In this document: piece by piece, positions 7,188 to 39,414 of the stretch
How positions within the stretch are numbered: the stretch's first letter is position 1
Layout of the letters: every line of letters begins with the position of its first letter
Origin: Candidatus Omnitrophota bacterium
GTDB lineage: Bacteria > Omnitrophota > Gorgyraeia > JACQQV01
Length of the DNA: 64,000 nt
Assembly (NCBI GenBank): GCA_016206785.1
Contig: JACQQV010000012.1
Location: 9,176 to 73,175, forward strand
Direction of reading: 5' to 3'
Made by a program: the position numbers and the translations under genes
The notes under the pieces: model-generated
Seen by the model: the letters and a program-made list of their open reading frames with translations, nothing else
What the model was told of the DNA's origin: nothing
The model's database searches: none

Positions 7188-8219
7188 CTATTCTTTCTTT
7201 TCCTGTTCGTAATTGATCGCCCGGATTGGATAAGGAATCACGATTCCCTCTTTGGCATAGCGCTCATGGAGGCGTTTTACAAATTCGTGTTTGATGAGAT
7301 ATTGGTCAACGAATTCCTTTGCCCTTAAGATAACCGTGAAATTAATGCTCGAATCCCCAAAGGTGTGATACCGGATAAAGGGTTCAAAGGTCGGGACCCC
7401 CCCTTTGATTTCCTTCATGACTTCCTTCGCAACCTCGCAGGTCACCTGTTCCACCTTCTTTAAGTCACTATTATAGTGGACCCCCACCTGTACCAGGACC
7501 GCCAATTCTGTGTCGGGAAGATAATAATTCACAACGATCGCCTGGGCGAGTTTAGCGTTCGGAACCAAGACTATATTGTTGGGAAGCATCCGGATCTTGG
7601 TGGTGCGCCAGGTGATATCAATCACATATCCCTCCTCCCCGGACTCCAATTTGATATAGTCTCCGATTTTGATCTGTCTTGCGAGAGTCACATGGACTCC
7701 TGCAAAAAGGTTAGAAAGCGTATCCTGTAACCCTAACGCAACCGCAAGCCCCCCAATGCCTAAGGTGGCCAGAATCGGGGCAATGGAGATTCCGAGGCTT
7801 TGGAGAATGATTAAAAAACCGATACCGAAGACGACAATCCGGGTCATGTTTTCGGTGAGGGAGGTCGTTGGCAAAGCGCCCCCCATTTTTGCAGCATATC
7901 TCTTGACCAGCTGTGTGGAGATCTTGGCCAAGACCCATGTGATGGAAAATATCCCGAGTGAGAGCAAAATTTTCCCAGAGGCATCAACAACTTTCTCCGG
8001 AAGTTTGGAAAACTCAAGGGAAAAATAGACGGCCAATATCAAGCACCAGATCATAAATGGGCCCTTCATTGCAGAAATGACGATATCGCCAATTCCTGTT
8101 TTGGTCTTTTGAGCCCATCCGGACAGACGCCTCAACAACACATTGCGTAAGAGATACCCGATTAAAAGTGTCCCCAAGAAAATGATAAGAGGCATAAAGA
8201 CTTCGACCAACGTCAACAT
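7188..8219 (-). CDS. small-conductance mechanosensitive channel (MscS family)
   Basis: Three TM helices followed by an MscS beta-domain (LGLQDTLSNLFAGVHVTLARQIKIGDYIKLESGEEGYVIDITWRTTKIRMLPNNIVLVPNAKLAQAIVVNY). Strong Shine-Dalgarno AAGGAGGTGA. Confidence 0.8.
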   Translation of the reverse strand: MLTLVEVFMPLIIFLGTLLIGYLLRNVLLRRLSGWAQKTKTGIGDIVISAMKGPFMIWCLILAVYFSLEFSKLPEKVVDASGKILLSLGIFSITWVLAKISTQLVKRYAAKMGGALPTTSLTENMTRIVVFGIGFLIILQSLGISIAPILATLGIGGLAVALGLQDTLSNLFAGVHVTLARQIKIGDYIKLESGEEGYVIDITWRTTKIRMLPNNIVLVPNAKLAQAIVVNYYLPDTELAVLVQVGVHYNSDLKKVEQVTCEVAKEVMKEIKGGVPTFEPFIRYHTFGDSSINFTVILRAKEFVDQYLIKHEFVKRLHERYAKEGIVIPYPIRAINYEQEKKE

Positions 8220-8384: not shown

Positions 8385-8433
8385 TTGTGGCATAAAACCA
8401 AAAACCGCCACCTGAGTTAAACTCAGATGGCGG
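8385..8433 (-). terminator. rho-independent terminator (copy 1 of a repeated hairpin element)
   Basis: Stem ccgccacctgagtt/aactcagatggcgg (8405-8433) is followed on the minus strand by tttttggtttta. Confidence 0.5.
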
Positions 8434-8678
8434 CCCGACCATCTAGAATACCTCCCCAGAAAAATACCTGGAGACCCAATTTTTTGCTATCTACTATTTA
8501 AGTTACAGAACTAGTATAAAGGAAATCCGGCTTAAATGCAAGAAAAATATGGCGGAGGAACTGGGATTCTCTAGGGTGGATAAAAACCTCACCCAGAAGC
8601 TGCCTAAAGACCCAACGATGCGTCTCTTCTAAGTGAGGAGGTGTTGGGTCGACGAAGCCTCTGGGTGAGTCGAGTGTT

Positions 8679-11241: not shown

Positions 11242-12663
11242 TTAATCCTCTTGGATATGGACCTCCTTTCTGATACCCAGTTTGTTTATTTTATCTTTTA
11301 ACGTGGGGCGGCTAATTCCTAACAGTTTCGCCGCTTGGGTTTGGTTACCCTGCATCTTCTTCAGCACCTCAATGAGTAAGATTTTCTCGGTCTCTTCAAC
11401 AACGTTTGCATATAGTGAACCTTTCTTAGCGTCAACCTGTTGTCTAACCATTTGACGTAACGCGCTCTGGAACTGGCGCGGCGGTTCCTCTTGTCTGGTA
11501 CGATCTTCTTTCTCAATCGAGACACACTCTGGGAGAAGGGTGCTTCCCTTGCCAAGAAGGATCGCCCTTTTGATGACGTTTTCCAGTTCTCTCACATTCC
11601 CCGGCCAATCATACATCTGTAACGTCTGAAGCGCCTCAGGAGAAATCCTGCGTATCTCCTTCCCAAACTCCCTGTTGTATTTGACCAAGAAGTATTCTAC
11701 AAGCTGAGGGATGTCTTCCTTACGATCCCGTAGCGGCGGAATCATAATCGTCATGGCATTGAGTCTGTAGTATAAGTCTTCTCTGAACTTATTTTCTTTG
11801 ATAAGTGCCTCCAAATCTCTATTGGTCGCGGCAATTAGCCGGACATCGGCCCGAATGGAATTATTCCCGCCTAACCTTTCAAAAGATTTGTCTTCCAAGA
11901 TGCGCAAAACCTTTGCCTGGGTTGCATGGGACATATCCCCAATTTCATCCAAAAAGATTGTGCCACCATGGCACTGCTCCAGTCTCCCGATCCTGCGCTC
12001 TTTCGCATCGGTGAAGGCACCCTTTTCATATCCAAAGAGTTCGCTTTCTAAAAGGGAATCCGGGATCGCTGCTGAATTAATGATCAAAAAGGACTTATCT
12101 TTCCGTTTGGAGTGGTGATAGATCGCCCGGGCGATGAGTTCCTTGCCTGTTCCACTTTCGCCCCTTAAAAGGACAGTGACATCGCTTGCGGTAACACTGC
12201 CAACCAGCTTATACACCTGTTGCATGTTGAAGGAGGATCCGACGATCCTGTCCCCTTTGAAGGGTTCCTTGGGCTCATAGGTAACCTCTGTCCTCATGAT
12301 TCTTCCTACCTCAAGGGCCTCTTCAATTGTCTTTTTAATCTCACGGACATCAAATGGCTTGATCACATAGTCATAGGCACCCAGTCTCATCGCTTCAATC
12401 GCGGTCTCCGTTGTCCCAAAAGCAGTCATCAAAATAACCGGTATTTTATAGTCGATCTCTTTCAGTTTTGTAAATGCGTCCAACCCTGTCATCCCAGGCA
12501 TCCGGATATCCATAATGGTAAGGTCAATCGTCTGGCTTTTAGCGATAGAAAGTGCCTCTTGTGCATGATTGGCGGTAAGAACTTGATATCCGTCTTGTGC
12601 GAGGATCTTCTTGAAGGAAGAAAGCATATTTTTCTCGTCATCGACAACAAGGATTCTATTCAT
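11242..12663 (-). CDS. sigma-54-dependent Fis-family response regulator (NtrC/AtoC/ZraR type)
   Basis: A REC domain (ILVVDDEKNM...DLTIMDIRMPGMTGLD), an AAA+ sigma-54 activator domain (GESGTGKELIARAIH, GAFTDA, ESELFGYEKGAFTDA) and a C-terminal Fis-type HTH (AAKLLGISRPTLKDKINKLGI). Confidence 0.9.
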   Translation of the reverse strand: MNRILVVDDEKNMLSSFKKILAQDGYQVLTANHAQEALSIAKSQTIDLTIMDIRMPGMTGLDAFTKLKEIDYKIPVILMTAFGTTETAIEAMRLGAYDYVIKPFDVREIKKTIEEALEVGRIMRTEVTYEPKEPFKGDRIVGSSFNMQQVYKLVGSVTASDVTVLLRGESGTGKELIARAIYHHSKRKDKSFLIINSAAIPDSLLESELFGYEKGAFTDAKERRIGRLEQCHGGTIFLDEIGDMSHATQAKVLRILEDKSFERLGGNNSIRADVRLIAATNRDLEALIKENKFREDLYYRLNAMTIMIPPLRDRKEDIPQLVEYFLVKYNREFGKEIRRISPEALQTLQMYDWPGNVRELENVIKRAILLGKGSTLLPECVSIEKEDRTRQEEPPRQFQSALRQMVRQQVDAKKGSLYANVVEETEKILLIEVLKKMQGNQTQAAKLLGISRPTLKDKINKLGIRKEVHIQED

Positions 12664-12674
12664 TCAAAACCTCT

Positions 12675-14015
12675 TTAAGCCAACGTACCACTATCCTTCA
12701 ACGGAATGGGCAATCTCATGTTTAATCGAGTTCCTCCCCCTGCCTCGCTATTTATCGTAATGACCCCTTTATGCATCTGAATAATCCTAGAGGCAATAAA
12801 TAGCCCCAACCCTATCCCAGTCTGTTTGGTGGTAAAGAAGGGCTCAAATAATTTCTTCTTTAGATCAGGAGGTATCCCAACGCCCGTATCTTTGAACTCG
12901 ATGTCTAAAACGCCGGCTGATTTCCTGTCTCCGTTTTTCATGGAGGTGGATATCTCTAATCTTCCGCCATGGGGCATCGCCTCAATGGCATTTAGCAGGA
13001 TGTTTAAAAATGCCTGGCGCATCTGCTCCTTATCTATTTCAACTTCGAGGGAGACGGCTTCCCATCTCTTATGGATTTCGATTTTCTGGGAGGAGACTTT
13101 CGGTGAAAGAAAGTCAACGGTTGACTCTAACACACGGTGGATGTCAACCCTCTGAAGATTTGGCTCAGGAGGGCGCGCAAAATCAAGAAAGTTCTGCACG
13201 ATCTTCTCCATCCTATTTATCTCCTCGTTGATGACAGCCGTATCATCTTTTGCACTTAGATTTTCTTTAAGTTCCTCCTGTAGAGAATGGACTCTCATTT
13301 TAATGGCTGACAAGGGATTCCTGATCTCATGGGCAATCGTGGCAGAGAGTTGCCCCAAAGAGGCCATCTTGGCAGATTGGACCAGTTGTTCTCCGACCTT
13401 GCGCGCAATCAAAAACCCCATGACTAAACCGAGACAGAGGGTAATGAGAATGGTTACCCAAATCAGGGAGGTCATTTTGATCGCATTCCTTCGGGAAGAG
13501 GCCTCGGCCTTGACGATCAGCGATTCATTTGTGAGGATGAGGTCCTCACATTTTTGATAGAGCGCGTCAATGCTATTTTTCATGTCATTCAGGAGAATCC
13601 CTTTGGCTTCTGTTACATTGCCTCCTTGGTATAACCCAATGGCCCTGTTTCTCTGGTTATCATATACTTTATATAAGGCACGGATATCTTGGAGGATCCT
13701 TTTTTCCTCAGGGGTCAAGGCCACCTCTTGAGCGTTTTTAAACCAGATGTCAAAGTCCCTTTTCTTTTCCTCAAGCGTTCTAAGCCATTCTGGATTCCCA
13801 TCTAAAATATAACTTGATACCATCCCTTTTTGATTGAGTAAAGCCAGTTCCAATTCCTCGGCTGCTTTTAAGCTTGAGACATTCTCCTTCATAATGGATC
13901 GGGAGACATTCTGGAGATTTTTTGTTGTGATAAAGGTAAAATATCCAACTAAAATTAACAGGAATGCCATCACGGCGAGGCCACCGATGATCCTGTGGCT
14001 AAATGCGACTTTCAT
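12675..14015 (-). CDS. sensor histidine kinase (HisKA + HATPase_c, two-TM periplasmic sensor)
   Basis: Two TM segments flank a ~150-aa periplasmic domain. It has an H-box (HEIRNPLSAIKM), N-box (ILLNAIEAM) and G-boxes (DTGVGIP, GIGLGL). Confidence 0.85.
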   Translation of the reverse strand: MKVAFSHRIIGGLAVMAFLLILVGYFTFITTKNLQNVSRSIMKENVSSLKAAEELELALLNQKGMVSSYILDGNPEWLRTLEEKKRDFDIWFKNAQEVALTPEEKRILQDIRALYKVYDNQRNRAIGLYQGGNVTEAKGILLNDMKNSIDALYQKCEDLILTNESLIVKAEASSRRNAIKMTSLIWVTILITLCLGLVMGFLIARKVGEQLVQSAKMASLGQLSATIAHEIRNPLSAIKMRVHSLQEELKENLSAKDDTAVINEEINRMEKIVQNFLDFARPPEPNLQRVDIHRVLESTVDFLSPKVSSQKIEIHKRWEAVSLEVEIDKEQMRQAFLNILLNAIEAMPHGGRLEISTSMKNGDRKSAGVLDIEFKDTGVGIPPDLKKKLFEPFFTTKQTGIGLGLFIASRIIQMHKGVITINSEAGGGTRLNMRLPIPLKDSGTLA

Positions 14016-14154: not shown

Positions 14155-14198
14155 TTTTCCCTATTAAAAAGCCGCCATCTGACAGAGTCAGATGGCGG
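14155..14198 (-). terminator. rho-independent terminator (copy 2 of the repeated hairpin element)
   Basis: Perfect stem ccgccatctga/tcagatggcgg (14172-14198) followed on the minus strand by ctttttaatag. Confidence 0.5.
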
Positions 14199-14339
14199 CC
14201 CGACCATCTCGGTCTCCTCCAGAGGCGGAAAATCCGTCTCCGGACCCTTTGATCAATTATCTATTCCAAGATACCACTCTTCTTGAGAAATCGCAAAGAA
14301 AAATTTCAAAGGATATTACGGCAGAACTGGAGAGATGCC

Positions 14340-27737: not shown

Positions 27738-28289
27738 TTATGCCGTGATCACGGCACTAACGGGGACATCCCGCAAGGAGGTAGGAAGTTTTATGACTCT
27801 CTGAAATCGAAATGCGAGTCCGATGAGAGGAATCCGCCCTTTGAAGCGCTTCAGAAACCGGTCGTAGTAGCCGCCGCCGCGGCCGAGGCGGTTTCCCTTC
27901 GCGTCAAACGCGATCCCCGGCACGACGACCAGATCAATCTCTCGAGAGGAGACAAGGCGCCTTCTCCCCGACCGCGGTTCCAGAATGCCAAAGCGTTGAG
28001 GAGAAAGATCCTTTTTGAAATCAAGAACTTCGGCCGGCCTTATCCTTCTTCCCTCAAGGCTCGGCACGACGACCCGTTTCCCAAGCCGGAGGGCCAACCG
28101 GATCATGCGATACGTGTCAACCTCCTCGGGAAGCGACACATAAAACATGACCGTGTGGGAGCGCCGGAATTCTCTTCTCTGAAAGAGCTTCTTTTCAATG
28201 GTGCGACTTTTTTGGAGCCGCGCTTTACGACTCTGCTTCTTCAAACGCTCAAGGAGTGAGCAACGGATTTCTGATTTAAGGGACCGCAT
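27738..28289 (-). CDS. 5-formyltetrahydrofolate cyclo-ligase
   Basis: MTHFS motifs are present ([26 protein letters not shown]). Confidence 0.8.
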
Positions 28290-28741
28290 TAAATGTGAAA
28301 GGTGTAGCGATGTTCCATGAGTTCATCGAGGCCTAACCGCTTCACCTCTTCACACAGTTCCTTCAAGGAGGTTGCCTCTAAAACTTCCTTCATCCTTTGG
28401 GCAAGTTTCCCCCACACCAGATTCACGATCGGGTGAAGTCCATTTTTGCCATTCTGGATCTTCCCATCGTAAAGGGATTCAAGCCCATTTTCCAAGGTCC
28501 TCACAATCTCCCCGATCGTGATCGCCTCAGGCGGTTTCGCCAACCGGTATCCTCCCTTCGGCCCCCGCTCCGCCCCCACGAGTCCTTTTTTCTTAAGGCG
28601 ATTCAAGATCTGCTCAAGATAAGGAAGCGAGATCTTCTCTTTCTCAGCGATACTCGAGACAGAAATGGGGCCTTGCGGATACCGGAGGGCAAGCGCATAC
28701 ATCGCCAAAAGGCCGTAAGTCGATCGGGCTGAGAGTTTCAT
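28289..28741 (-). CDS. Rrf2-family transcriptional regulator (no Fe-S-ligand cysteine cluster)
   Basis: Rrf2 wHTH (ARSTYGLLAMYALAL...ISVSSIAEKEKISLPYLEQILNRLKKKGLVGAERGPKGGYRLAK). The cysteine cluster of IscR-type members is absent. Confidence 0.75.
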   Translation of the reverse strand: MKLSARSTYGLLAMYALALRYPQGPISVSSIAEKEKISLPYLEQILNRLKKKGLVGAERGPKGGYRLAKPPEAITIGEIVRTLENGLESLYDGKIQNGKNGLHPIVNLVWGKLAQRMKEVLEATSLKELCEEVKRLGLDELMEHRYTFHI

Positions 28742-28967: not shown

Positions 28968-31900
28968 ATGAGAAGAGTCACTTCATTCCTCACCATTGAG
29001 TTCTTCCTTATATGTAGCCTCGGCGCTGATCCCGCTATAGCGCAATCTTCTTTCCCTCCCCAGGGCGGGCGAACCGGCCAACCCGTAAACAGGTTAACCC
29101 TTTCAGTCCAGACACACCTTCGACCCCCCTCCGGAATAGCCTCTTCCAAAGAAATTCAATCCGCTCTGGACGGGGGCGAAAAAAAGACCCCTCCCTCTTA
29201 CAGGCGAAGGACCGATGAGGAGGTAAAAATCGCGTATCTTTTTACACGCTTCGATACCCTGCATGGAGAAATCGACCGCGTCACCACACTCCTCACCCGT
29301 CTCAAAGGGAAAGTGACGGAGGAAGAAGAAGGAAGGATGCAACTTGAGTTTACCCGCCTCCTTGAAACGCTTAAAGCCCTTTCCAAGGAACTGCCCCCAA
29401 TGGATACTCTCCCAAAAGAGTTTACGGCCCTACAGGCAAAGAATAAGGAACTTGCAAAAGAAAGCCGGGCCCTCCGTCAAGAAATTTTGAAAGCGCATGA
29501 GAGAAAAGAGGACGATCGCCTCACGCAACTCAATACGGAGATCACGCAAAAACTGTGGCTTCGCTCCTGGATAGAACTGGAACTTGCTTATTCCTTCTTC
29601 ACCGATAAAAAGAACCCCACCGCTGCCCTCGCGCTTTTGATCGGCGTACGAAACAGAATGGCTGACCTCCAGACAGAATATTGGTGGCGCCGTGTCCGTA
29701 AGGTGATCGGCCAAAAGATTACCCACGAGATGCTAGAGGATTGGTTCAAAATCCCCGTAGAGGTCACTTATGTCGGTGATTACGACATCAAACTCTCAGA
29801 GAAGGGGGAGGTAACAATCTACAGAAGACATTGGAGAAAGCGAACTATCCCGACGGCCGGTGGGGAAATGGTTTCAGTGAATGAGCCTGAGGTTACCGCC
29901 TTCAAATTCCAAGATATGCCCACAGCGCTCCGGAGCGAAATTCATATTGTCATGAGTCAGGGAGAAGCCTATCGGGGGGTGTTACACGCCTTAAGTAATC
30001 TACAACATCTCCTTCTCCGGATGAAACAACAGAAGGAAAAAAGGGAGGCGATGCCTAAGAAGGAACTCCAGGCGGCCTTAGAGATCACCTACACGTGGGC
30101 CCATCGAGGGATTGCAAGTGATTTAAGAAGACGGGCCCTCCCGGACCTGGAAAACGGAGCGGCATATCTTGAGAAAGAATTGTACGAGGATGCGATGGCG
30201 GCGCTCGAGAGGGCAAAACAGAAGTTGCGTCACGCTCTCAAACGACAGGAAACAACGGGTGAGAGAACACGCGCCAGGGCTCTTGTCTTCCTCAATGAAT
30301 GGCGTTTTCTCCTTGAAAACCGGGAAAGACTCGTCGCCGGAGTCAAGGAGGCACTAGAACACGCTCATCCAAAAAATCCACTCGAATTCATACGTCGACT
30401 TGAAACCCTCAGGCAAGGGGTCTTCCGCACAAAACCGAGACTTTTAGCGCTTCAAGAGGTCTACAACCGTTTCAACCAGACGTTTGTCCTCCTTAGAAGA
30501 GCCTCGGAACTCTTAGCAAAAAAGGAAAGGGCGCCGAAAGAAGAAAGGCAGATCTATTCGCTCTCCAATGCTGCGAAAAAGAACCTAAGACTCATGCTAG
30601 GGGATCTTGAAAGGGATCAGAATAGAAAAACAGCCCGTGACGGGGCGGAGCAGAAGGAGGTATCCCCAGAAGTCCTTGCGTTCCAGGAGACCCTTGAAAT
30701 AGAATTCGCAGCACTTCTTGAAAAATGGGAGAAGGATGATGTGGAAAATCTTCCGGAGCATCTTGAAGAATGGGAGGCCTGGCTGGGCATCCAGAAGGAA
30801 AGATTCATCCGTTGGGGAAGGGGAAAGGTCATACCCCACTCCCCGCAGGCAGTGGCACTCCAACCACTCGTGGAGAAGTTCCTGGAACTGACCGATCGAG
30901 CCAAAACTCTTTTTGAAGCCCATCTTCTGGATGTGAAGGATATTGTTGGCCTTTCCTACATTCAGGCCGGAAATTTCTACCACTTCCTCCTGGAAGAGAC
31001 CGACCGCGCGGTCGAACTCTACGCCAAGGCCCCGGAAGAGCTCCGTCAGGACTATTTCGCAAGAGATGTCTTTTACGGGATCCGCCGCGCCTATGAAGCG
31101 CAGAAGGCCCGCGATGGCGGAAGGCGCGTTCCTCTTCCGGAATTCATGGCCGCTTATGAACGACTTTCACAAAGTGGAAAACCGCCCGATACCAAAATGC
31201 TTTCTGAAGCTCTGGGGATGTCGGCAAGCGCGGTAAGGCAACGGACAAACCGCCTCGGATTGAAACGATCCGGCGTACCGGTAAGCAACAAGGAATTCCA
31301 AAAAGCGTACCGCCTTTTGACAAAAGAGCTGAAACGGCCGCCTACCAAAGAAGAAATCGCTTCACATCTTGTCGACATTACTCCGGATGCAGCGAGAGAC
31401 CGGGCGCGGCATCGGGGTCTCAGACTTTCCAACCATAAAACAACGGAGATCGAATTCCGGAGTGCCTACCGACGCCTTCAACGCCGGCTCAAGAGAGCCC
31501 CGAACGCAGAGGAGATTGCCAAATTTCTTGTTCGGGGATCTGAAAAGCATATCCGGCACCGCAGTCATGTACTTGGCCTTGAATTGACTTCCATGCCCCT
31601 CGCCAGCCCTCTTTCGCGCTACCGAGATGGCCTCACCGACGAAGTTCCTCCGGACCACATTGCGCAACTGCGGCGAGCTTCGCGCGGCGCTCTTGCTCTT
31701 TCCCTTGCTGACGCCGAACTCGAAGGCTTCCCAGCATCCCTCGGAGAAGTGGGAAGTAAGGTCGTTGTTCATTTTGAACGGGTCAGAGGGAAGACGCGGG
31801 ATCTCATCGTCACTTTTAGACCGGTCCTCTCAGACGAAACGACAGAACCGCCGCATGCGATGCGTCGCCTTATCATCCGCGACGGAAGGATAAGGGTGGA

Positions 31901-33764
31901 GAAAAATCTCAACGGTCCGAATGCACTCCATGACCTCCGGCGGCTTCGGGCAAGGGGGATCAACTTTGATGCTCTTCCCCAATATGTCCGGAGAAACAGC
32001 CCTTCGGATGCCCTTTTAAAAGTGATGCTTTTTGAACAAAGGGGGTTTCTTCCGCTTTGGAGCTGGTTCCAATATTCGCCTACAACGATTCAAAAGCGCC
32101 TGAATGCCATCAGGCCGAACACATTACAGCGACTGTTGAATGCTGCAGAAAGAAAAGAAGAAGAACTCTCACAAAGAAGTACCGCGTTCAATGACAACAT
32201 TCCTTCTCTCTTTAAAGAGGGGGAGACCCCAGCCCAACTTGAGAAGATCGCCCTGCACGTTCCCTCCAAGAAGGATCCAAGACGGATCCTCAGGGAGTTC
32301 GAGCGCTTAGAAACCGCCTCCCTCGGAACGCACCTGATGCACCAAAGAAGAGGAATGCTCATTCCTTATAAGCAGATTCTCCGGGAACTGCCGGGGTTAT
32401 ATCTTATCGATTCTGAGCCCCTGCTCAAACGGGCCCTGGGAATTCTAGGGCACTATGGTTTTATTCTTTTGTATCAGAATGGCGGTGTGATGGTCCTTGA
32501 CACCCCTTTCCCAGCGAATACAGGGAATTATCCCTCTGCTTCCGCCCGCGACGGGGCCGATCGGCAAGCGGATGTACTCACCCGCCAACTCGAAGAAAAA
32601 TTTGGCCAGGGTCTTGAGAGAGGGGATGAAACAGTTATTCAAGATATCGTTACCTATCGCGACTCACTTCCACCAAGCACACCCACACGACAACTCCTTT
32701 ACGAGTGGCTACAACATCATGAATCGGCACTCGCTGCAAAGGCGATCGCAGCCATGGGACTCAATTGGCCAGGGGTTGTGTCGAAACTCCTTGATGTCAT
32801 CGAAGGAAAACGGGATGGAAACCCCCACGCAGCAGCACGACAACTTGATGAACTCGTAAGTGAAGGAAGGTATGGGGGACTCGTGGCACCCTTAGAAGTG
32901 ATTGAAGAAGCGAAAGATGTGTGGCACCGCCATTCAGGATTCTCAAAGCTTCTTGCACCTATCAAATTTCCCTCCTTTCCAACTCCTCTTTCTGAAAAAC
33001 CGGGTGTCCTTGTCCTTGTGCGTCACGGCGAAACCACCTGGAGTGAAGCGGTCCTCAATAAATGGGCTGGATGGCACGACGCGAAGGTGACTGAGAAAGG
33101 GCGAAAAGAGGCTTATGAAGCGGGAGAAAGAATCAAGGTAGAAGGCCTTCATTTCGATCAAGCCTACTCTTCAGACTTGTCGCGTGCGGAACAAACTCTC
33201 CTCCAAGCCCTTGCGGCGGTCGGACAAACCGACATACCGATTGTCCACGATAAGACCCTCCGTGAACGGAATTATGGAGATATGATCGGTTGGAACCGGA
33301 AGGATGTAGAAAGGATATTCGGACAAGATGTGTTAAAACGATGGCGACGCGGCTATTCTGGAAATGCCATCCGTCCGCCGGGCGGCGAAAATCTCGCGGA
33401 TGTGCAAGAGCGAACAGTCCCTTTCTTAGTTGAGCACATCCTTCGTGATGTGGCTGAAGGGAAAAATGTCATTGTCTCCGCACATGGAAACAGTCTCCGC
33501 TCTATCCTTGTGTCTCTTCGAGAACAAACAGAAGGTCGCAAGCTCAGTGAAGAGGAAATTCTGTCCCTCGAGGTTCCTCTCTCAACACCAATTGTCATCA
33601 CGTTCGCCGCGGAGTGGTACCATCAAGAACTTTGGGTTGATCAAGAGAAAAGAGCTGAGGACGTTTTGGGCTTCTTAACCTCCACCCGCGACGGGGCCGA
33701 GCGGCAGGTGCGTCCCCTCCTCCGAGAAATTCCTCGTTTGGAACCAGCCCTCCTCAGCCCCTAA
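28968..33764 (+). CDS. large orphan multidomain protein: signal-peptide-like N-terminus, ~700-aa region of unknown fold with coiled-coil-like stretches, three tandem sigma-70-region-3-like HTH repeats, C-terminal GpmA-like histidine phosphatase (dPGM-type) domain
   Basis: An uninterrupted 1,598-codon ORF. The N-terminus is MRRVTSFLTIEFFLICSLGADPAIA-QSS. Most of the protein has no match to any family I can name, with K/E/R-rich coiled-coil-like stretches in places. Three ~48-aa repeats (AYrrLxxxLkRpPtxEEIAxxL...LGL) resemble RpoD region 3. The C-terminal ~210 aa align with GpmA (LVRHGETTWSE...GWHD, ERNYGDMIGWN, WRRGY, SAHGNSLRSIL...EEEILSLEVPLSTPIV). Confidence 0.6.
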   Translation: MRRVTSFLTIEFFLICSLGADPAIAQSSFPPQGGRTGQPVNRLTLSVQTHLRPPSGIASSKEIQSALDGGEKKTPPSYRRRTDEEVKIAYLFTRFDTLHGEIDRVTTLLTRLKGKVTEEEEGRMQLEFTRLLETLKALSKELPPMDTLPKEFTALQAKNKELAKESRALRQEILKAHERKEDDRLTQLNTEITQKLWLRSWIELELAYSFFTDKKNPTAALALLIGVRNRMADLQTEYWWRRVRKVIGQKITHEMLEDWFKIPVEVTYVGDYDIKLSEKGEVTIYRRHWRKRTIPTAGGEMVSVNEPEVTAFKFQDMPTALRSEIHIVMSQGEAYRGVLHALSNLQHLLLRMKQQKEKREAMPKKELQAALEITYTWAHRGIASDLRRRALPDLENGAAYLEKELYEDAMAALERAKQKLRHALKRQETTGERTRARALVFLNEWRFLLENRERLVAGVKEALEHAHPKNPLEFIRRLETLRQGVFRTKPRLLALQEVYNRFNQTFVLLRRASELLAKKERAPKEERQIYSLSNAAKKNLRLMLGDLERDQNRKTARDGAEQKEVSPEVLAFQETLEIEFAALLEKWEKDDVENLPEHLEEWEAWLGIQKERFIRWGRGKVIPHSPQAVALQPLVEKFLELTDRAKTLFEAHLLDVKDIVGLSYIQAGNFYHFLLEETDRAVELYAKAPEELRQDYFARDVFYGIRRAYEAQKARDGGRRVPLPEFMAAYERLSQSGKPPDTKMLSEALGMSASAVRQRTNRLGLKRSGVPVSNKEFQKAYRLLTKELKRPPTKEEIASHLVDITPDAARDRARHRGLRLSNHKTTEIEFRSAYRRLQRRLKRAPNAEEIAKFLVRGSEKHIRHRSHVLGLELTSMPLASPLSRYRDGLTDEVPPDHIAQLRRASRGALALSLADAELEGFPASLGEVGSKVVVHFERVRGKTRDLIVTFRPVLSDETTEPPHAMRRLIIRDGRIRVEKNLNGPNALHDLRRLRARGINFDALPQYVRRNSPSDALLKVMLFEQRGFLPLWSWFQYSPTTIQKRLNAIRPNTLQRLLNAAERKEEELSQRSTAFNDNIPSLFKEGETPAQLEKIALHVPSKKDPRRILREFERLETASLGTHLMHQRRGMLIPYKQILRELPGLYLIDSEPLLKRALGILGHYGFILLYQNGGVMVLDTPFPANTGNYPSASARDGADRQADVLTRQLEEKFGQGLERGDETVIQDIVTYRDSLPPSTPTRQLLYEWLQHHESALAAKAIAAMGLNWPGVVSKLLDVIEGKRDGNPHAAARQLDELVSEGRYGGLVAPLEVIEEAKDVWHRHSGFSKLLAPIKFPSFPTPLSEKPGVLVLVRHGETTWSEAVLNKWAGWHDAKVTEKGRKEAYEAGERIKVEGLHFDQAYSSDLSRAEQTLLQALAAVGQTDIPIVHDKTLRERNYGDMIGWNRKDVERIFGQDVLKRWRRGYSGNAIRPPGGENLADVQERTVPFLVEHILRDVAEGKNVIVSAHGNSLRSILVSLREQTEGRKLSEEEILSLEVPLSTPIVITFAAEWYHQELWVDQEKRAEDVLGFLTSTRDGAERQVRPLLREIPRLEPALLSP

Positions 33765-37921: not shown

Positions 37922-38227
37922 TTAGGAAGAGACCCTTCTTTTAAGAAGCGTTTCGATTTTTTGAATCCGTCGGCGCAGAATCCCCTTCCGTCCCTTTGGA
38001 TCATCGACCTTGATGGTCGTCACGACGCGGGCCGATGCTCTGAGGAGAAGACGATGGCAGCGCTCAATGAGCGCAAAAATTTCTTTCCATTCCCCTTCCA
38101 CGATCGTCCCCATCTCCGTCACTTTGTAAGGAAGGCCGCTTTGATCCACAAGGTCAATGGCCTTGGCCACCTGCTTGGAAATGCTTACTCCCTTCCCGAT
38201 AGGGAGAACGCTAAATTCGACAATCAC
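37922..38227 (-). CDS. MTH1187/YkoF family (thiamine-binding-like) protein
   Basis: IVEFSVLPIGKGVSISKQVAKAIDLVDQSGLPYKVTEMGTIVEGEW matches the UPF0045/YkoF pattern. Confidence 0.65.
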   Translation of the reverse strand: MIVEFSVLPIGKGVSISKQVAKAIDLVDQSGLPYKVTEMGTIVEGEWKEIFALIERCHRLLLRASARVVTTIKVDDPKGRKGILRRRIQKIETLLKRRVSS

Positions 38228-39414
38228 GAGAATTCTCCTTTTAAAAATTTACCCATTAAGGTGAACCCTTCAGAAACCCAAAGTTTGGAGTGGGATGCCT
38301 CTTCTTCGGTATATGTTTTAAAACCATTTCCCTTCACCCCAGTTCCAAAAAGGGTAAAGGGAACAGGATCGTGGGTGTGGGTCCGGATTACTGTTGAAGT
38401 CATATGATCTGGTAAAAGTAAAAGTCGAAACTCCTTCATTTTTAAAAGACCTTCAAGAAGCGTCCCAACCAGGAGGTTATCGAAATCTTCAATCGCTTCC
38501 ACTTTAAGTTTCACATCCCCCATATGCCCTGCTTCATCAGTGGACTCTACATGAATAAAAAGAAAATCTTTTTTCTTGAGTGCTTCCAGGCCATACTGGG
38601 CTTTTGCCTTATAGTCCGTATCAAAATAACCGGTCGCCCCGGGGACCTGAATCACTTCAAGCCCCACACTTCGTCCCACCCCACGGACGAGATCGACTGC
38701 GCTAATGACCGAACCATCCAATCCGTACTGAGAGTTAAAACTGGGAAGGACCGGCCGGGTTCCCTGCCCCCAAAGCCAGATACTCGTCGCTGGATCTTTT
38801 CCCTCTTTTTTCCTTTTTTGATTTACCGGATGGTCAGAAAGAATTTTCTGAGATTCCTCCATGAGCTCTCGGAGTTCTTTTTCCCCTTCTCCCTTCGGGA
38901 AATAGGGCTCCACCTCTTTGCCAGCGATGTCATGAGGGGGAGTACATTTCACCTTTCCATAACGGCGCGACACAAGGAGGTGACGGTATTGGACTCCGGC
39001 ATAAAACTGAAACCCGTCTCCGCCCAACTTTTCCTGAAGCGTTGCGATAATTGCCTTCGCTTCTTCACTTGAGATATGCCCGGCGCTATAATCCTTCATT
39101 TTCCCTTTTTCAAGGGTGATGAGATTACAGCGGAAGACGACTTCCTCTTTTGAAAGGGAAATGCCGAGACTTGCCGCTTCAAGAGGGGCGCGACCGGTGT
39201 AATAGCGACGGGGATCATACCCCAAAAGGCTCATGCAGGCCACATCACTCCCCGACGGAAGTTCCTTTGGAACCGTCTGAACTTGTCCCAAGAGTCCCTT
39301 TTGGACGATCGTATCAAGGTTCTGCCTCTTGGCCGCCTCGAGGGGCGTTTTGTTTCCTAATTCGGGGATTGGTTTATCGGCGACACCGTCCGGAACGACA
39401 AGAATATATTTCAC
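38224..39414 (-). CDS. apgM: cofactor-independent phosphoglycerate mutase, archaeal type
   Basis: MKYILVVPDGVADKPIPELGNKTPLEAAKRQNLD...GSDVACMSLLGYDP is the ApgM-type N-terminus. Length 396 aa. Confidence 0.8.
   Translation of the reverse strand: MKYILVVPDGVADKPIPELGNKTPLEAAKRQNLDTIVQKGLLGQVQTVPKELPSGSDVACMSLLGYDPRRYYTGRAPLEAASLGISLSKEEVVFRCNLITLEKGKMKDYSAGHISSEEAKAIIATLQEKLGGDGFQFYAGVQYRHLLVSRRYGKVKCTPPHDIAGKEVEPYFPKGEGEKELRELMEESQKILSDHPVNQKRKKEGKDPATSIWLWGQGTRPVLPSFNSQYGLDGSVISAVDLVRGVGRSVGLEVIQVPGATGYFDTDYKAKAQYGLEALKKKDFLFIHVESTDEAGHMGDVKLKVEAIEDFDNLLVGTLLEGLLKMKEFRLLLLPDHMTSTVIRTHTHDPVPFTLFGTGVKGNGFKTYTEEEASHSKLWVSEGFTLMGKFLKGEFS

What the first reader, a model, noticed from the sequence alone, without database searches (positions are those of the whole stretch)
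31150..31595. Three tandem sigma-70-region-3-like HTH repeats inside the orphan protein
Repeat A is AYERLSQSGKPPDTKMLSEALGMSASAVRQRTNRLGLKRSG. Repeat B is AYRLLTKELKRPPTKEEIASHLVDITPDAARDRARHRGLRLSN. Repeat C is AYRRLQRRLKRAPNAEEIAKFLVRGSEKHIRHRSHVLGLELTS. All three share AYrrL...LkRpPtxEEIA...LGL, closely resembling RpoD region 3.0 (...LGREPTPEEIAxxMxMPxxKVRKVLKI...). A triplicated region-3 module outside a sigma factor is unusual. It could bind DNA or RNA polymerase, or mimic sigma (anti-sigma or decoy function).
Basis: seen in the sequence. Interest (0 to 1): 0.6.

Follow-up and report, generated by a model that had tools for sequence, protein, structure and literature searches.

The report
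Three tandem helix-turn-helix DNA-binding-type repeats
The three repeats are real, separately folding, strongly basic helix-turn-helix units that most likely form a nucleic-acid-binding arm rather than a sigma-factor mimic; they sit at the front of one cassette of an unusual cassette-swapping exported protein of an uncultured Omnitrophota bacterium.

Summary
Residues 722-879 of a 1598-aa ORF (window 28968-33764, +) contain three 51-54-aa repeats (nt 31131-31604). Pairwise scores lie 8.5-15 SD above shuffles. There is no DNA-level repeat, so the triplication is old.

The sigma-70 region-3 resemblance is real but partial. Pfam Sigma70_r3 passes its cut-off only as a summed score, and only profile positions ~7-35 of 78 are matched. 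No sigma regions 2 or 4 are present.

The same unit is homologous over its full length (hhalign 98.7%) to long tandem arrays whose best Pfam match is the homing-endonuclease-associated repeat PF18780. The best fold matches for the module model are phage endonuclease and transposase proteins.

AlphaFold models three independent three-helix units (pLDDT 85-93) joined by ~10-aa linkers, not a TPR-like solenoid. The region has pI 11.1.

Relatives carry one such unit in front of a conserved beta-domain plus winged-helix module. This genome alone has three.

My reading is a multivalent nucleic-acid-binding arm. Sigma mimicry is unlikely.

Context is the more unusual part. The host gene is a signal-peptide-bearing mosaic whose cassettes are swapped between five syntenic Omnitrophota loci and bounded by an A-x-D-G-[G/A] motif.

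The parts
28968..33764 (+). 1598-aa mosaic ORF that contains the repeats
   Evidence: Single ORF. An almost identical protein, P0001, exists in a Logan assembly. The neighbouring DXS gene places the organism in Candidatus Omnitrophota (74% identity to an Omnitrophota MAG).
28968..29162 (+). Leader (aa 1-65): basic N-terminus, the only hydrophobic segment of the protein (aa 4-20), an A-I-A-Q signal-peptidase-like site, then LRPPSG...EIQS
   Evidence: Hydropathy scan. The same leader pattern is present in the five orthologous loci. No signal-peptide predictor was available, so export is inferred.
29163..29177 (+). Junction motif 1 (ALDGG, aa 66-70)
29178..30632 (+). Cassette M1, a ~490-aa helical module of unknown function
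   Evidence: 86% identical to P0002 and 52% to P0003. No Pfam hit.
30633..30647 (+). Junction motif 2 (ARDGA, aa 556-560)
   Evidence: DNA similarity to locus L065 stops here, at nt 30651.
30648..31106 (+). Cassette M2, an acidic helical module (aa 561-713) of unknown function
   Evidence: No family hit. pI 4.8.
31107..31121 (+). Junction motif 3 (ARDGG, aa 714-718), immediately before the HTH repeats
   Evidence: In relatives the HTH unit also begins 5-8 residues after a DGG junction.
31131..31283 (+). HTH repeat A (aa 722-772); helices at aa 723-736, 742-749 and 753-763
   Evidence: 68.6 bits against the unit profile.
31284..31442 (+). HTH repeat B (aa 773-825); helices at aa 774-788, 794-800 and 806-815
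   Evidence: Best Sigma70_r3 stretch, profile positions 7-35.
31443..31604 (+). HTH repeat C (aa 826-879); helices at aa 827-841, 847-854 and 859-868. This copy corresponds to the single unit of relatives.
31608..31901 (+). Conserved 'RYRDGLT..PPD' beta-rich domain (aa 881-978, seven strands)
   Evidence: AlphaFold model, pLDDT mostly 80-95. Conserved in 14 homologous segments, including giant proteins. No Pfam or PDB sequence match.
31902..32357 (+). Helical middle region of the cassette (aa 979-1130); variable in length among relatives
32358..32501 (+). C-terminal winged-helix-like domain of the cassette (aa 1131-1178)
   Evidence: The model shows helix, helix, then a two-strand hairpin. Conserved 'LKRALGxLSxxGFxxxY..G..VLD'.
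32544..32558 (+). Junction motif 4 (ARDGA, aa 1193-1197)
   Evidence: The model is disordered here (pLDDT below 50 for model residues 467-479).
33003..33614 (+). Cofactor-dependent phosphoglycerate-mutase-like (histidine phosphatase) domain, aa 1346-1549, in the last cassette
   Evidence: Pfam His_Phos_1 E 1.9e-31. TIGR01258 157 bits against a cut-off of 81.7.
33684..33698 (+). Junction motif 5 (TRDGA, aa 1573-1577)
33699..33761 (+). Conserved C-terminal tail ERQVRPLLREIPRLEPALLSP
   Evidence: The same tail type is present in all five orthologous loci.
28289..28741 (-). Divergent Rrf2-family regulator; the conserved left neighbour of the mosaic gene
   Evidence: Pfam Rrf2 E 8e-33. 75-84% identical in L001, L066 and L068.

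Best explanation
The three repeats are three independently folded, strongly basic, three-helix helix-turn-helix domains joined like beads on a string by ~10-residue linkers. They arose by an old tandem triplication of the single HTH unit that normally heads a conserved cassette (HTH, then a 'RYRDG' beta domain, a helical region and a winged helix). This cassette is found in a small group of Omnitrophota proteins. I propose that the array is a multivalent nucleic-acid-binding arm, most probably for double-stranded DNA. It would increase the avidity or footprint with which the rest of the cassette is tethered to its target. Tandem HTH arrays of homing endonucleases and Myb-type repeats work this way. 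The cassette is one of several interchangeable cassettes in a signal-peptide-bearing mosaic protein, so the target is probably outside the producer's cytoplasm (extracellular, host or prey nucleic acid). Shown here: the repeats, their statistics, the three-helix fold prediction, the basic charge, the homology to PF18780-type arrays and to the first half of sigma region 3, and the cassette architecture with its variation between loci. Inferred: nucleic-acid binding, export, and the benefit of having three copies.
For: The repeats are real and specific. Each unit is modelled as helix(14)-turn-helix(8)-turn-helix(10) with pLDDT 85-93. The units are separated by non-helical linkers, and pTM is only 0.38, which fits mobile beads. 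A single-sequence model gave the same secondary structure. The region has 34 K+R against 17 D+E and pI 11.1, with a conserved R-x-R in the third helix. Besides Sigma70_r3, Pfam lists only DNA-binding HTH families for the units (HTH_24, HTH_17, HTH_5, Fe_dep_repress, LexA_DNA_bind and others). hhalign of the 11-unit profile against the 22 units of the all-repeat proteins P0014 and P0020 gives probability 98.7% and E 1.9e-16 over 54 of 57 columns. Those arrays score 184.6 and 110.1 bits on PF18780, the homing-endonuclease-associated repeat. Their 12 units each match the window-derived profile independently, at 19-38 bits. Foldseek against viral models gives its best hits over 160-180 columns, about the length of the three-unit array. 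They are a phage endonuclease (E 9e-4), an HTH psq-type protein, a mismatch endonuclease, a LAGLIDADG endonuclease and transposases. Relatives carry exactly one unit directly before the same beta domain (P0004, P0005 twice, P0010, P0011, P0015, P0017, P0019). The unit is therefore an accessory head of that cassette, and the window's three copies are a copy-number expansion. The cassette also ends in a winged-helix-like domain.
Against: There is no experimental or direct computational evidence of DNA binding. No PDB fold match is significant (best E 0.2). The viral hits are borderline (E about 1e-3), and I could not see which residues were aligned. An N-terminal signal-like segment puts a DNA-binding array outside the cytoplasm, which is unusual and needs an external nucleic-acid target. 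No nuclease or other DNA-acting domain was recognised in the cassette. The conserved basic third helix could equally bind RNA or another polyanion. The word-indexed homology searches returned nothing for this region, so the family context rests on 17 HMMER hits.
Confidence: 0.5

Rival explanations
1. Sigma mimicry. The units are derived sigma domain-3 modules that bind RNA polymerase core, or an anti-sigma factor, and act as a decoy or competitor.
For: Sigma70_r3 is the best Pfam family for the segment (43.6 bits) and for 6 of 11 homologous units. Sigma factors dominate the PDB sequence hits of the unit profile, always at region 3. The low-confidence model superposes locally on the sigma-F domain-3 fragment seen bound to the anti-sigma factor SpoIIAB (1l0o_C, rmsd 1.8 A over 39 columns, but E 1.8).
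Against: Only profile positions ~7-35 of 78 match. Profile positions 1-6 and 36-78 are unmatched; I infer, from my own memory of where the extended -10 contacts and region 3.2 lie in E. coli sigma-70 (not tested here), that these are among the missing parts. There are no sigma region 2 or 4 hits. The same N-terminal signature ('GR-P-T..E-I-A') is shared with PF18780-type arrays, to which the units are homologous over their full length. Fold matches favour endonuclease and transposase HTH arrays. The signal-peptide-like leader points to export away from the producer's own RNA polymerase.
Confidence: 0.07
2. The units do not bind nucleic acid. The three-helix units serve as protein-protein adaptors, as binders of another anionic polymer (cell-wall or surface polysaccharide, polyphosphate), or simply as a spacer that holds the downstream domain away from the preceding cassette.
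For: The extracytoplasmic location is implied by the leader. No nuclease or DNA-modifying domain is present in the cassette. The same residues of helix 3 are conserved across paralogues and orthologues, which suggests one common ligand rather than diverse DNA sequences. The downstream domain also occurs in giant, signal-peptide-bearing Omnitrophota proteins. Published work proposes that Omnitrophota giant proteins act on prey cell surfaces (preprint 10.1101/2023.11.21.568195).
Against: All sequence-family and fold similarities are to DNA-binding HTH domains. The very basic charge is typical of nucleic-acid binders. A second DNA-binding-type fold (winged helix) is present in the same cassette.
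Confidence: 0.25
3. The apparent repeats are a compositional or chance similarity, or part of a generic helical (TPR-like) solenoid.
For: The protein is rich in helices and charged residues. Foldseek against the PDB found nothing significant.
Against: Shuffle z-scores are 8.5-15, with 0 of 2000 shuffles reaching the observed score. There are twelve invariant columns. Independent homologous units exist in eight other proteins. The model shows three-helix units with non-helical linkers, not paired-helix stacking.
Confidence: 0.01

Closest known systems
PF18780 'homing endonuclease associated repeat' (HNH_repeat) type tandem HTH arrays, represented here by P0014 (12 units) and P0020 (10 units) and by phage endonuclease HTH arrays
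   Same: Unit length and period (53-57 aa). The same H1, 'GR-P-x' turn, H2, turn, H3 layout ending in 'G[LV].L'. Tandem arrangement. Full-length profile-profile homology (98.7%). Best fold matches to phage endonucleases.
   Different: The window units themselves score only 18.4 bits on PF18780 (cut-off 26). There are three copies rather than 10-12. No HNH or other nuclease domain accompanies them. They head a beta-domain plus winged-helix cassette inside a signal-peptide-bearing mosaic protein.
Sigma-70 region 3 (Pfam PF04539; sigma domain 3)
   Same: The first helix, the 'REPT..EEIA' turn and the second helix, partly the third, align significantly. Both are three-helix HTH bundles.
   Different: Only about the first 30-50 of 78 profile positions are matched. 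No region 3.2. No flanking regions 2 and 4. Repeated three times. Present in an apparently exported protein. RNA polymerase binding is untested.
Tandem tri-helical DNA-binding repeats such as Myb R1-R2-R3 or paired/psq HTH arrays (a functional analogy, from general knowledge)
   Same: Several small three-helix HTH units on flexible linkers that together read or clamp a longer stretch of DNA. Weak Foldseek hits to c-Myb (1h88_C) and to an HTH psq-type protein.
   Different: No detectable sequence relationship, and the matches are not significant.
Mosaic multi-effector proteins and polymorphic toxins (MARTX toxins, Rhs and CdiA with junction motifs), and double-glycine (C39 peptidase) processing sites; relevant to the host protein, not the repeats (comparison from general knowledge)
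   Same: Constant N- and C-termini with interchangeable internal cassettes at one conserved locus. A short conserved motif lies at every cassette border. The G-G / G-A at the end of the motif resembles double-glycine cleavage sites.
   Different: The motif A-x-D-G-[GA] is not a described junction or cleavage motif as far as I know. Internal sites lack the hydrophobic -4/-7 pattern of double-glycine leaders. No C39 peptidase, immunity gene or secretion-system gene was found next to it. Cleavage is untested.

Membership tests
Sigma-70 region 3 (PF04539) | Score at or above the Pfam gathering cut-off (25.3 bits) | tested here: inconclusive
   The whole protein scores 32.5 bits and the 187-aa segment 43.6 bits, summed over 2-3 partial stretches. 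Unit B alone scores 21.7 bits, below the cut-off. One unit of relative P0005 reaches 27.6 bits.
Sigma-70 region 3 (PF04539) | Match across the whole 78-position domain (regions 3.0, 3.1, 3.2) | tested here: not met
   Matched profile positions are 7-35 of 78 in the window and at most 5-53 in P0005.
Sigma-70 region 3 (PF04539) | Located in a sigma factor between regions 2 and 4 | tested here: not met
   No Sigma70_r2, r4 or r4_2 hit for the protein at E up to 10. The neighbours within the protein are a beta domain and a histidine phosphatase.
Sigma-70 region 3 (PF04539) | Three-helix bundle containing an HTH | tested here: met
   AlphaFold model, three helices per unit, pLDDT 85-93.
Sigma-70 region 3 (PF04539) | Binds RNA polymerase core and extended -10 promoter DNA | not testable with these tools
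   Needs pull-down, two-hybrid or transcription assays.
PF18780 homing-endonuclease-associated repeat (HNH_repeat) | Score at or above the Pfam gathering cut-off (26 bits) | tested here: not met
   18.4 bits for the segment and 14.9 for unit B. Homologous arrays P0014 and P0020 score 184.6 and 110.1 bits.
PF18780 homing-endonuclease-associated repeat (HNH_repeat) | Full-length unit homology to bona fide members of the repeat family | tested here: met
   hhalign of A6 against A8: probability 98.7%, E 1.9e-16, 54 columns. The three window units alone give 95.7%, E 9e-9.
PF18780 homing-endonuclease-associated repeat (HNH_repeat) | Head-to-tail tandem copies with a ~54-57-aa period | tested here: met
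   Three copies with a period of 51-53 aa.
PF18780 homing-endonuclease-associated repeat (HNH_repeat) | Association with an HNH or other homing-endonuclease catalytic domain | tested here: not met
   No nuclease family in Pfam, NCBIfam, PHROGs or PADLOC for this protein. The profile of the downstream domain has no PDB match.
TPR-like / generic alpha-solenoid repeat | Paired antiparallel helices stacking into a continuous superhelix | tested here: not met
   Three-helix units are separated by 10-11 non-helical residues, and no TPR family was hit.
Double-glycine (C39 peptidase) processed precursor (considered for the host protein) | G-G, G-A or G-S at positions -2/-1 of the site | tested here: met
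   D-G-G or D-G-A at all five junctions of the window protein and all junctions of four orthologues.
Double-glycine (C39 peptidase) processed precursor (considered for the host protein) | Hydrophobic residues at -4 and -7 in an amphipathic leader, and a C39 peptidase or ABC exporter nearby | tested here: not met
   Internal sites have R, S, A or P at -4. No C39 domain in the ten large window ORFs checked or in the immediate neighbours. The rest of the genome was not available.

The most novel reading that the evidence does not exclude
The HTH triplet heads one cassette of a secreted polyprotein. In this reading, a small clade of host-dependent Omnitrophota keeps a single hypervariable locus between Rrf2 and DJ-1. 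Its product has a fixed leader and tail and shuffles internal cassettes: a nucleic-acid-binding HTH / beta-domain / winged-helix module, phosphoglycerate-mutase-like phosphatase, guanylate kinase, trypsin-like protease and methyltransferase. Every cassette is bounded by A-x-D-G-[G/A], which would be a previously undescribed double-glycine-like cleavage or recombination junction. The released HTH cassette would then act on host or prey nucleic acid, or even on host transcription through its sigma-3-like surface.
Probability: 0.2. Interest if true: 0.8.

Novelty: new variant of a known kind. Interest (0 to 1): 0.42.

Why it matters
The repeats themselves add a small, divergent branch to a known kind of DNA-binding module: tandem three-helix HTH units sharing the 'GR-P-T..E-I-A' signature of sigma region 3 and of homing-endonuclease-associated repeats. 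They also correct the tempting reading that a sigma-like motif implies sigma mimicry.

The setting matters more. HTH and winged-helix domains, together with normally cytoplasmic enzymes, appear as interchangeable cassettes of a signal-peptide-bearing protein in uncultured, reportedly host-dependent Omnitrophota. Every cassette border carries a sharply defined junction motif.

If that motif is a cleavage site, it would supply the cleavage points that published work on Omnitrophota giant proteins says are unknown (preprint 10.1101/2023.11.21.568195). It would also give a concrete, testable effector candidate.

Tried and rejected
1. Word-indexed homology searches with the cassette and with the 11-unit alignment returned nothing, not even the query's own cluster. 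The family picture therefore rests on the exhaustive HMMER search.

2. A genome-contig scan with the M1 alignment found no relative in 185,579 species genomes. A metagenome scan found only the P0002 contig.

3. The single-sequence AlphaFold model of aa 701-901 was poor (pLDDT 53). I used it only for secondary structure and one cautious Foldseek run.

5. tblastn of the three-unit segment against 50,697 phage genomes gave only E of about 0.08 hits to Aeromonas phage rIIB. I rejected these as chance.

6. No sigma-70 gene exists in the window or in the 1.1 Mb of fetched loci, so a local region-3 alignment for hhalign could not be built.

7. A profile of the downstream domain against PDB sequences gave nothing significant. 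PHROGs and PADLOC gave nothing for the cassette.

8. I considered a lipoprotein signal and a type IV pilin-like signal for the leader. There is no lipobox. The hydrophobic stretch is only ~14-17 residues, and an A-x-A-like site follows it. An ordinary Sec signal is therefore favoured, although the conserved Glu inside the hydrophobic segment is unexplained.

9. I considered the retropepsin-like protease next to the gene in L001 and L065 as the processing enzyme. It is absent from the window and from L066, so it cannot be a general partner.

10. I asked whether DNA-level conservation of the junction points to a recombination site. Synonymous positions vary, so the constraint is mainly on the protein.
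Full report
**1. What is there**

The finding lies inside one long +-strand ORF, window 28968-33764 (1598 aa).

Each string is preceded by a conserved 'EF..AY' helix start. The true units are therefore A = aa 722-772, B = 773-825 and C = 826-879 (nt 31131-31604).

Pairwise local alignment scores are 8.5, 9.5 and 15 standard deviations above shuffled controls, and 0 of 2000 shuffles reached them. Twelve columns are invariant. There is no fourth copy in the protein or anywhere else in the window.

Tandem Repeats Finder sees nothing at the DNA level, and the nucleotide copies are well diverged. The triplication is therefore old and visible only at the protein level.

**2. What the units are**

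- **Pfam.** Sigma70_r3 scores 32.5 bits for the protein (cut-off 25.3) and 43.6 bits with three stretches for the 187-aa segment. Each stretch covers only profile positions ~7-35 of 78. Weaker hits are all DNA-binding HTH families, plus PF18780, the homing-endonuclease-associated repeat. No sigma region 2 or 4 is found.
- **Other copies of the unit.** An exhaustive HMMER search with the surrounding cassette (aa 716-1194) against 1.84 billion representatives gave 17 hits. From them I recovered eight further copies of the unit, in P0004, P0005 (two), P0010, P0011, P0015, P0017 and P0019.
- **Per-unit family hits.** Scanned one by one, 6 of the 11 units hit Sigma70_r3 (best E 4.6e-6), more than any other family.
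- **PDB sequence hits.** The 11-unit profile finds mainly sigma factors in the PDB, always at region 3, at E 6e-5 to 1e-2.

The sigma-region-3 resemblance is therefore real. It is confined to helix 1, the 'R-x-P-T..E-I-A' turn, helix 2 and part of helix 3.

Two of the 17 hits, P0014 and P0020, consist of nothing but 12 and 10 tandem ~56-aa units. Their best Pfam family is PF18780 (184.6 and 110.1 bits), with Sigma70_r3 second (about 108 bits).

Profile-profile comparison of my 11 units with their 22 units gives 98.7% probability and E 1.9e-16 over the whole unit. The three window units alone give 95.7%. Each P0014 unit independently matches the window-derived profile.

The unit therefore belongs to a wider class of tandem HTH repeats. 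This class shares an N-terminal signature with both PF18780 and sigma region 3. A repeated 'region-3-like' module outside a sigma factor is not unprecedented.

**3. Structure**

A single-sequence model was poor (pLDDT 53) but already showed three helices per unit.

With a 15-row alignment of homologous cassettes, AlphaFold2 gave mean pLDDT 83. It shows:

- three separate helix(14)-turn-helix(8)-turn-helix(10) units (pLDDT 85-93) joined by 10-11 non-helical residues;
- then a seven-strand beta domain;
- then a helical region;
- then a C-terminal winged-helix-like domain.

The pTM of 0.38 fits domains on flexible linkers.

Foldseek against the PDB gave nothing significant. The weak list mixes sigma factors, DtxR/MntR repressors and Myb.

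Against viral models, the best matches align over 160-180 columns, about the length of the three-unit array (I could not see which residues were aligned). They are a phage endonuclease (E 9e-4), an HTH psq-type protein, a mismatch endonuclease, a LAGLIDADG endonuclease and transposases.

**4. Anatomy of the cassette and copy number**

In every relative, a single unit sits directly in front of the conserved 'RYRDGLT..PPD' beta domain. It aligns with the window's repeat C.

That beta domain plus winged helix also occurs, often repeatedly, in giant proteins of 1,872-7,822 aa. It has no Pfam or PDB sequence match.

The HTH is thus an accessory head of a conserved cassette, and it can be absent: the second cassette of P0004 lacks it. 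Only this genome has three copies. The triplet region is very basic (34 K+R, 17 D+E, pI 11.1), with a conserved R-x-R in helix 3.

**5. Context**

The neighbouring DXS gene is 74% identical to that of a Candidatus Omnitrophota MAG, and most of the closest relatives are Omnitrophota.

The protein starts with a basic N-terminus. It has a single hydrophobic segment, the only one in the protein, followed by an A-x-A-like site. This reads as a Sec signal peptide. That is an inference, because no predictor was available.

Five loci carry a gene with the same leader and the same C-terminal tail (..RPLL.E[IL]..[LF]EP.L..P): the window, L001, L065, L066 and L068. In each it sits between the same neighbours, Rrf2 (75-84% identical) and DJ-1 / Urate_ox_N (77-83% identical). 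The interiors are completely different:

| Locus | Protein | Interior |
|---|---|---|
| window | 1598-aa ORF | M1, M2, [3x HTH cassette], [unknown + cofactor-dependent phosphoglycerate-mutase-like phosphatase] |
| L065 | P0002 | M1, trypsin-like protease, guanylate kinase, another module |
| L001 | P0003 | a 200-aa module, then M1 |
| L066 | P0004 | two copies of the beta-domain/winged-helix cassette; only the first has an HTH |
| L068 | P0005 | two copies of the HTH cassette |

Every cassette border carries [ST]-A-[RLSAP]-D-G-[GA]. In the window the motif occurs only in this ORF. The background in six-frame ORFs of all fetched loci is about 30 per 850,000 residues, and those counts include these genes themselves.

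DNA similarity between the window and L065 ends exactly at junction 2 and resumes after the stop codon. Synonymous positions in the motif vary, so the constraint is mainly on the protein.

A 2023 preprint proposes that Omnitrophota giant proteins are cleaved by C39-type (double-glycine) peptidase domains, and states that the cleavage points are unknown (10.1101/2023.11.21.568195). The G-G / G-A ending of the junction motif is suggestive. However, the internal sites lack the hydrophobic -4/-7 pattern, and I found no C39 domain in the window.

**6. How it most likely works**

Best explanation (confidence 0.5): the triplet is a multivalent nucleic-acid-binding arm, most probably for dsDNA. It consists of three independent basic HTH domains and tethers the rest of its cassette to its target. 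This is analogous to the tandem HTH arrays of homing endonucleases or to Myb repeats. Three copies would give a longer footprint or higher avidity than the single copy of relatives. Because the host protein appears to be exported, the target is probably outside the producer's cytoplasm.

- **Shown:** the repeats, the fold prediction, the charge, the homologies, and the cassette architecture with its variability.
- **Inferred:** binding, export, and the advantage of three copies.

Rivals:

- **Sigma mimicry or RNAP binding (0.07).** The profile hits support it. The partial coverage, the missing sigma regions, the full-length homology to PF18780-type arrays, the endonuclease-type fold matches and the signal peptide all count against it.
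- **A non-nucleic-acid adaptor or polyanion binder (0.25).** The extracytoplasmic setting and the lack of any DNA-acting enzyme domain favour it. Every family and fold similarity is to DNA-binding HTH domains, which disfavours it.
- **Chance or a solenoid (0.01).** Refuted.

**7. Comparison and novelty**

- **Works like:** tandem HTH DNA-binding arrays.
- **PF18780 membership:** homologous at profile level and in arrangement, but below the Pfam cut-off and without a nuclease.
- **Sigma70_r3 membership:** the summed score passes, but domain coverage and sigma context fail. I do not file it as a sigma domain.

I rate it a new variant of a known kind. The repeats are moderately interesting on their own (0.42). 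The mosaic, junction-delimited host protein is the more novel lead (see the novel case).

Noticed in passing
window 28968-33764; L001 9365-11656; L065 5-4303; L066 7301-10234; L068 715-3810: One conserved locus (Rrf2 | gene | DJ-1 / Urate_ox_N; neighbours 75-84% identical) carries a gene with the same leader and the same C-terminal tail but entirely different internal cassettes in five related Omnitrophota genomes. DNA identity between the window and L065 stops exactly at a cassette junction (nt 30651).
   Followed up: partly
window 29163-29177, 30633-30647, 31107-31121, 32544-32558, 33684-33698: The motif [ST]-A-[RLSAP]-D-G-[GA] marks every cassette border in the window protein and its four orthologues. 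It occurs in no other ORF of the window. It may be a double-glycine-like cleavage site or a junction signature. No C39 peptidase was found among the window ORFs checked.
   Followed up: partly
window 33699-33761 and 28968-29162: The conserved C-terminal tail (RPLL.E[IL]..[LF]EP.L..P, always ending in Pro) and the conserved leader are shared by all five orthologues. The leader has a Glu inside the hydrophobic segment, then A-[LI]-[AG]-Q, LRP[RP][SA]G and E-I-Q-S-A-L-D-G-G. The tail is not hydrophobic and matches no sorting signal I know.
   Followed up: no
L001 11665-12244 (-); L065 4300-4704 (-): A 133-134-aa retropepsin-like aspartyl protease (Pfam gag-asp_proteas / Asp_protease_2) lies convergent to, and abutting, the mosaic gene in two loci. 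In L001 a DUF5678 gene accompanies it. Both are absent from the window and from L066.
   Followed up: partly
window 33003-33614 (+) and 38224-39414 (-): A cofactor-dependent phosphoglycerate-mutase-like domain (intact RHG and AHGNS motifs) is a cassette of the exported mosaic protein, while the genome also encodes a separate cofactor-independent phosphoglycerate mutase 5 kb away. P0002 carries guanylate kinase and a trypsin-like protease as cassettes, and P0010 a methyltransferase.
   Followed up: partly
window 31608-32501: The 'RYRDGLT..PPD' seven-strand beta domain plus winged-helix-like domain has no Pfam or PDB sequence match. It recurs, sometimes several times, in giant proteins of up to 7,822 aa. 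An E-P-P-H motif is nearly invariant.
   Followed up: partly
window 8425-8477 (-) and 14190-14247 (-): Two nhaA-I (sodium-responsive) riboswitch matches above the Rfam gathering score. One lies upstream of an MscS-type mechanosensitive channel gene (7188-8219). The other lies upstream of a histidine kinase (12675-14015) that is followed by a sigma-54-dependent response regulator (11242-12663).
   Followed up: no
window 31455-31457 (aa 830): The only difference between the window protein and its database twin P0001 (Logan assembly) is F830S, at the otherwise invariant Phe of the 'EF' motif of repeat C.
   Followed up: no
L069 193-2310 (P0014): A 705-aa protein made only of 12 tandem ~56-aa HTH units (best Pfam family PF18780), on a 2.7-kb JGI contig. 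P0020 is similar, with 10 units. Their organism and neighbours are unknown.
   Followed up: partly
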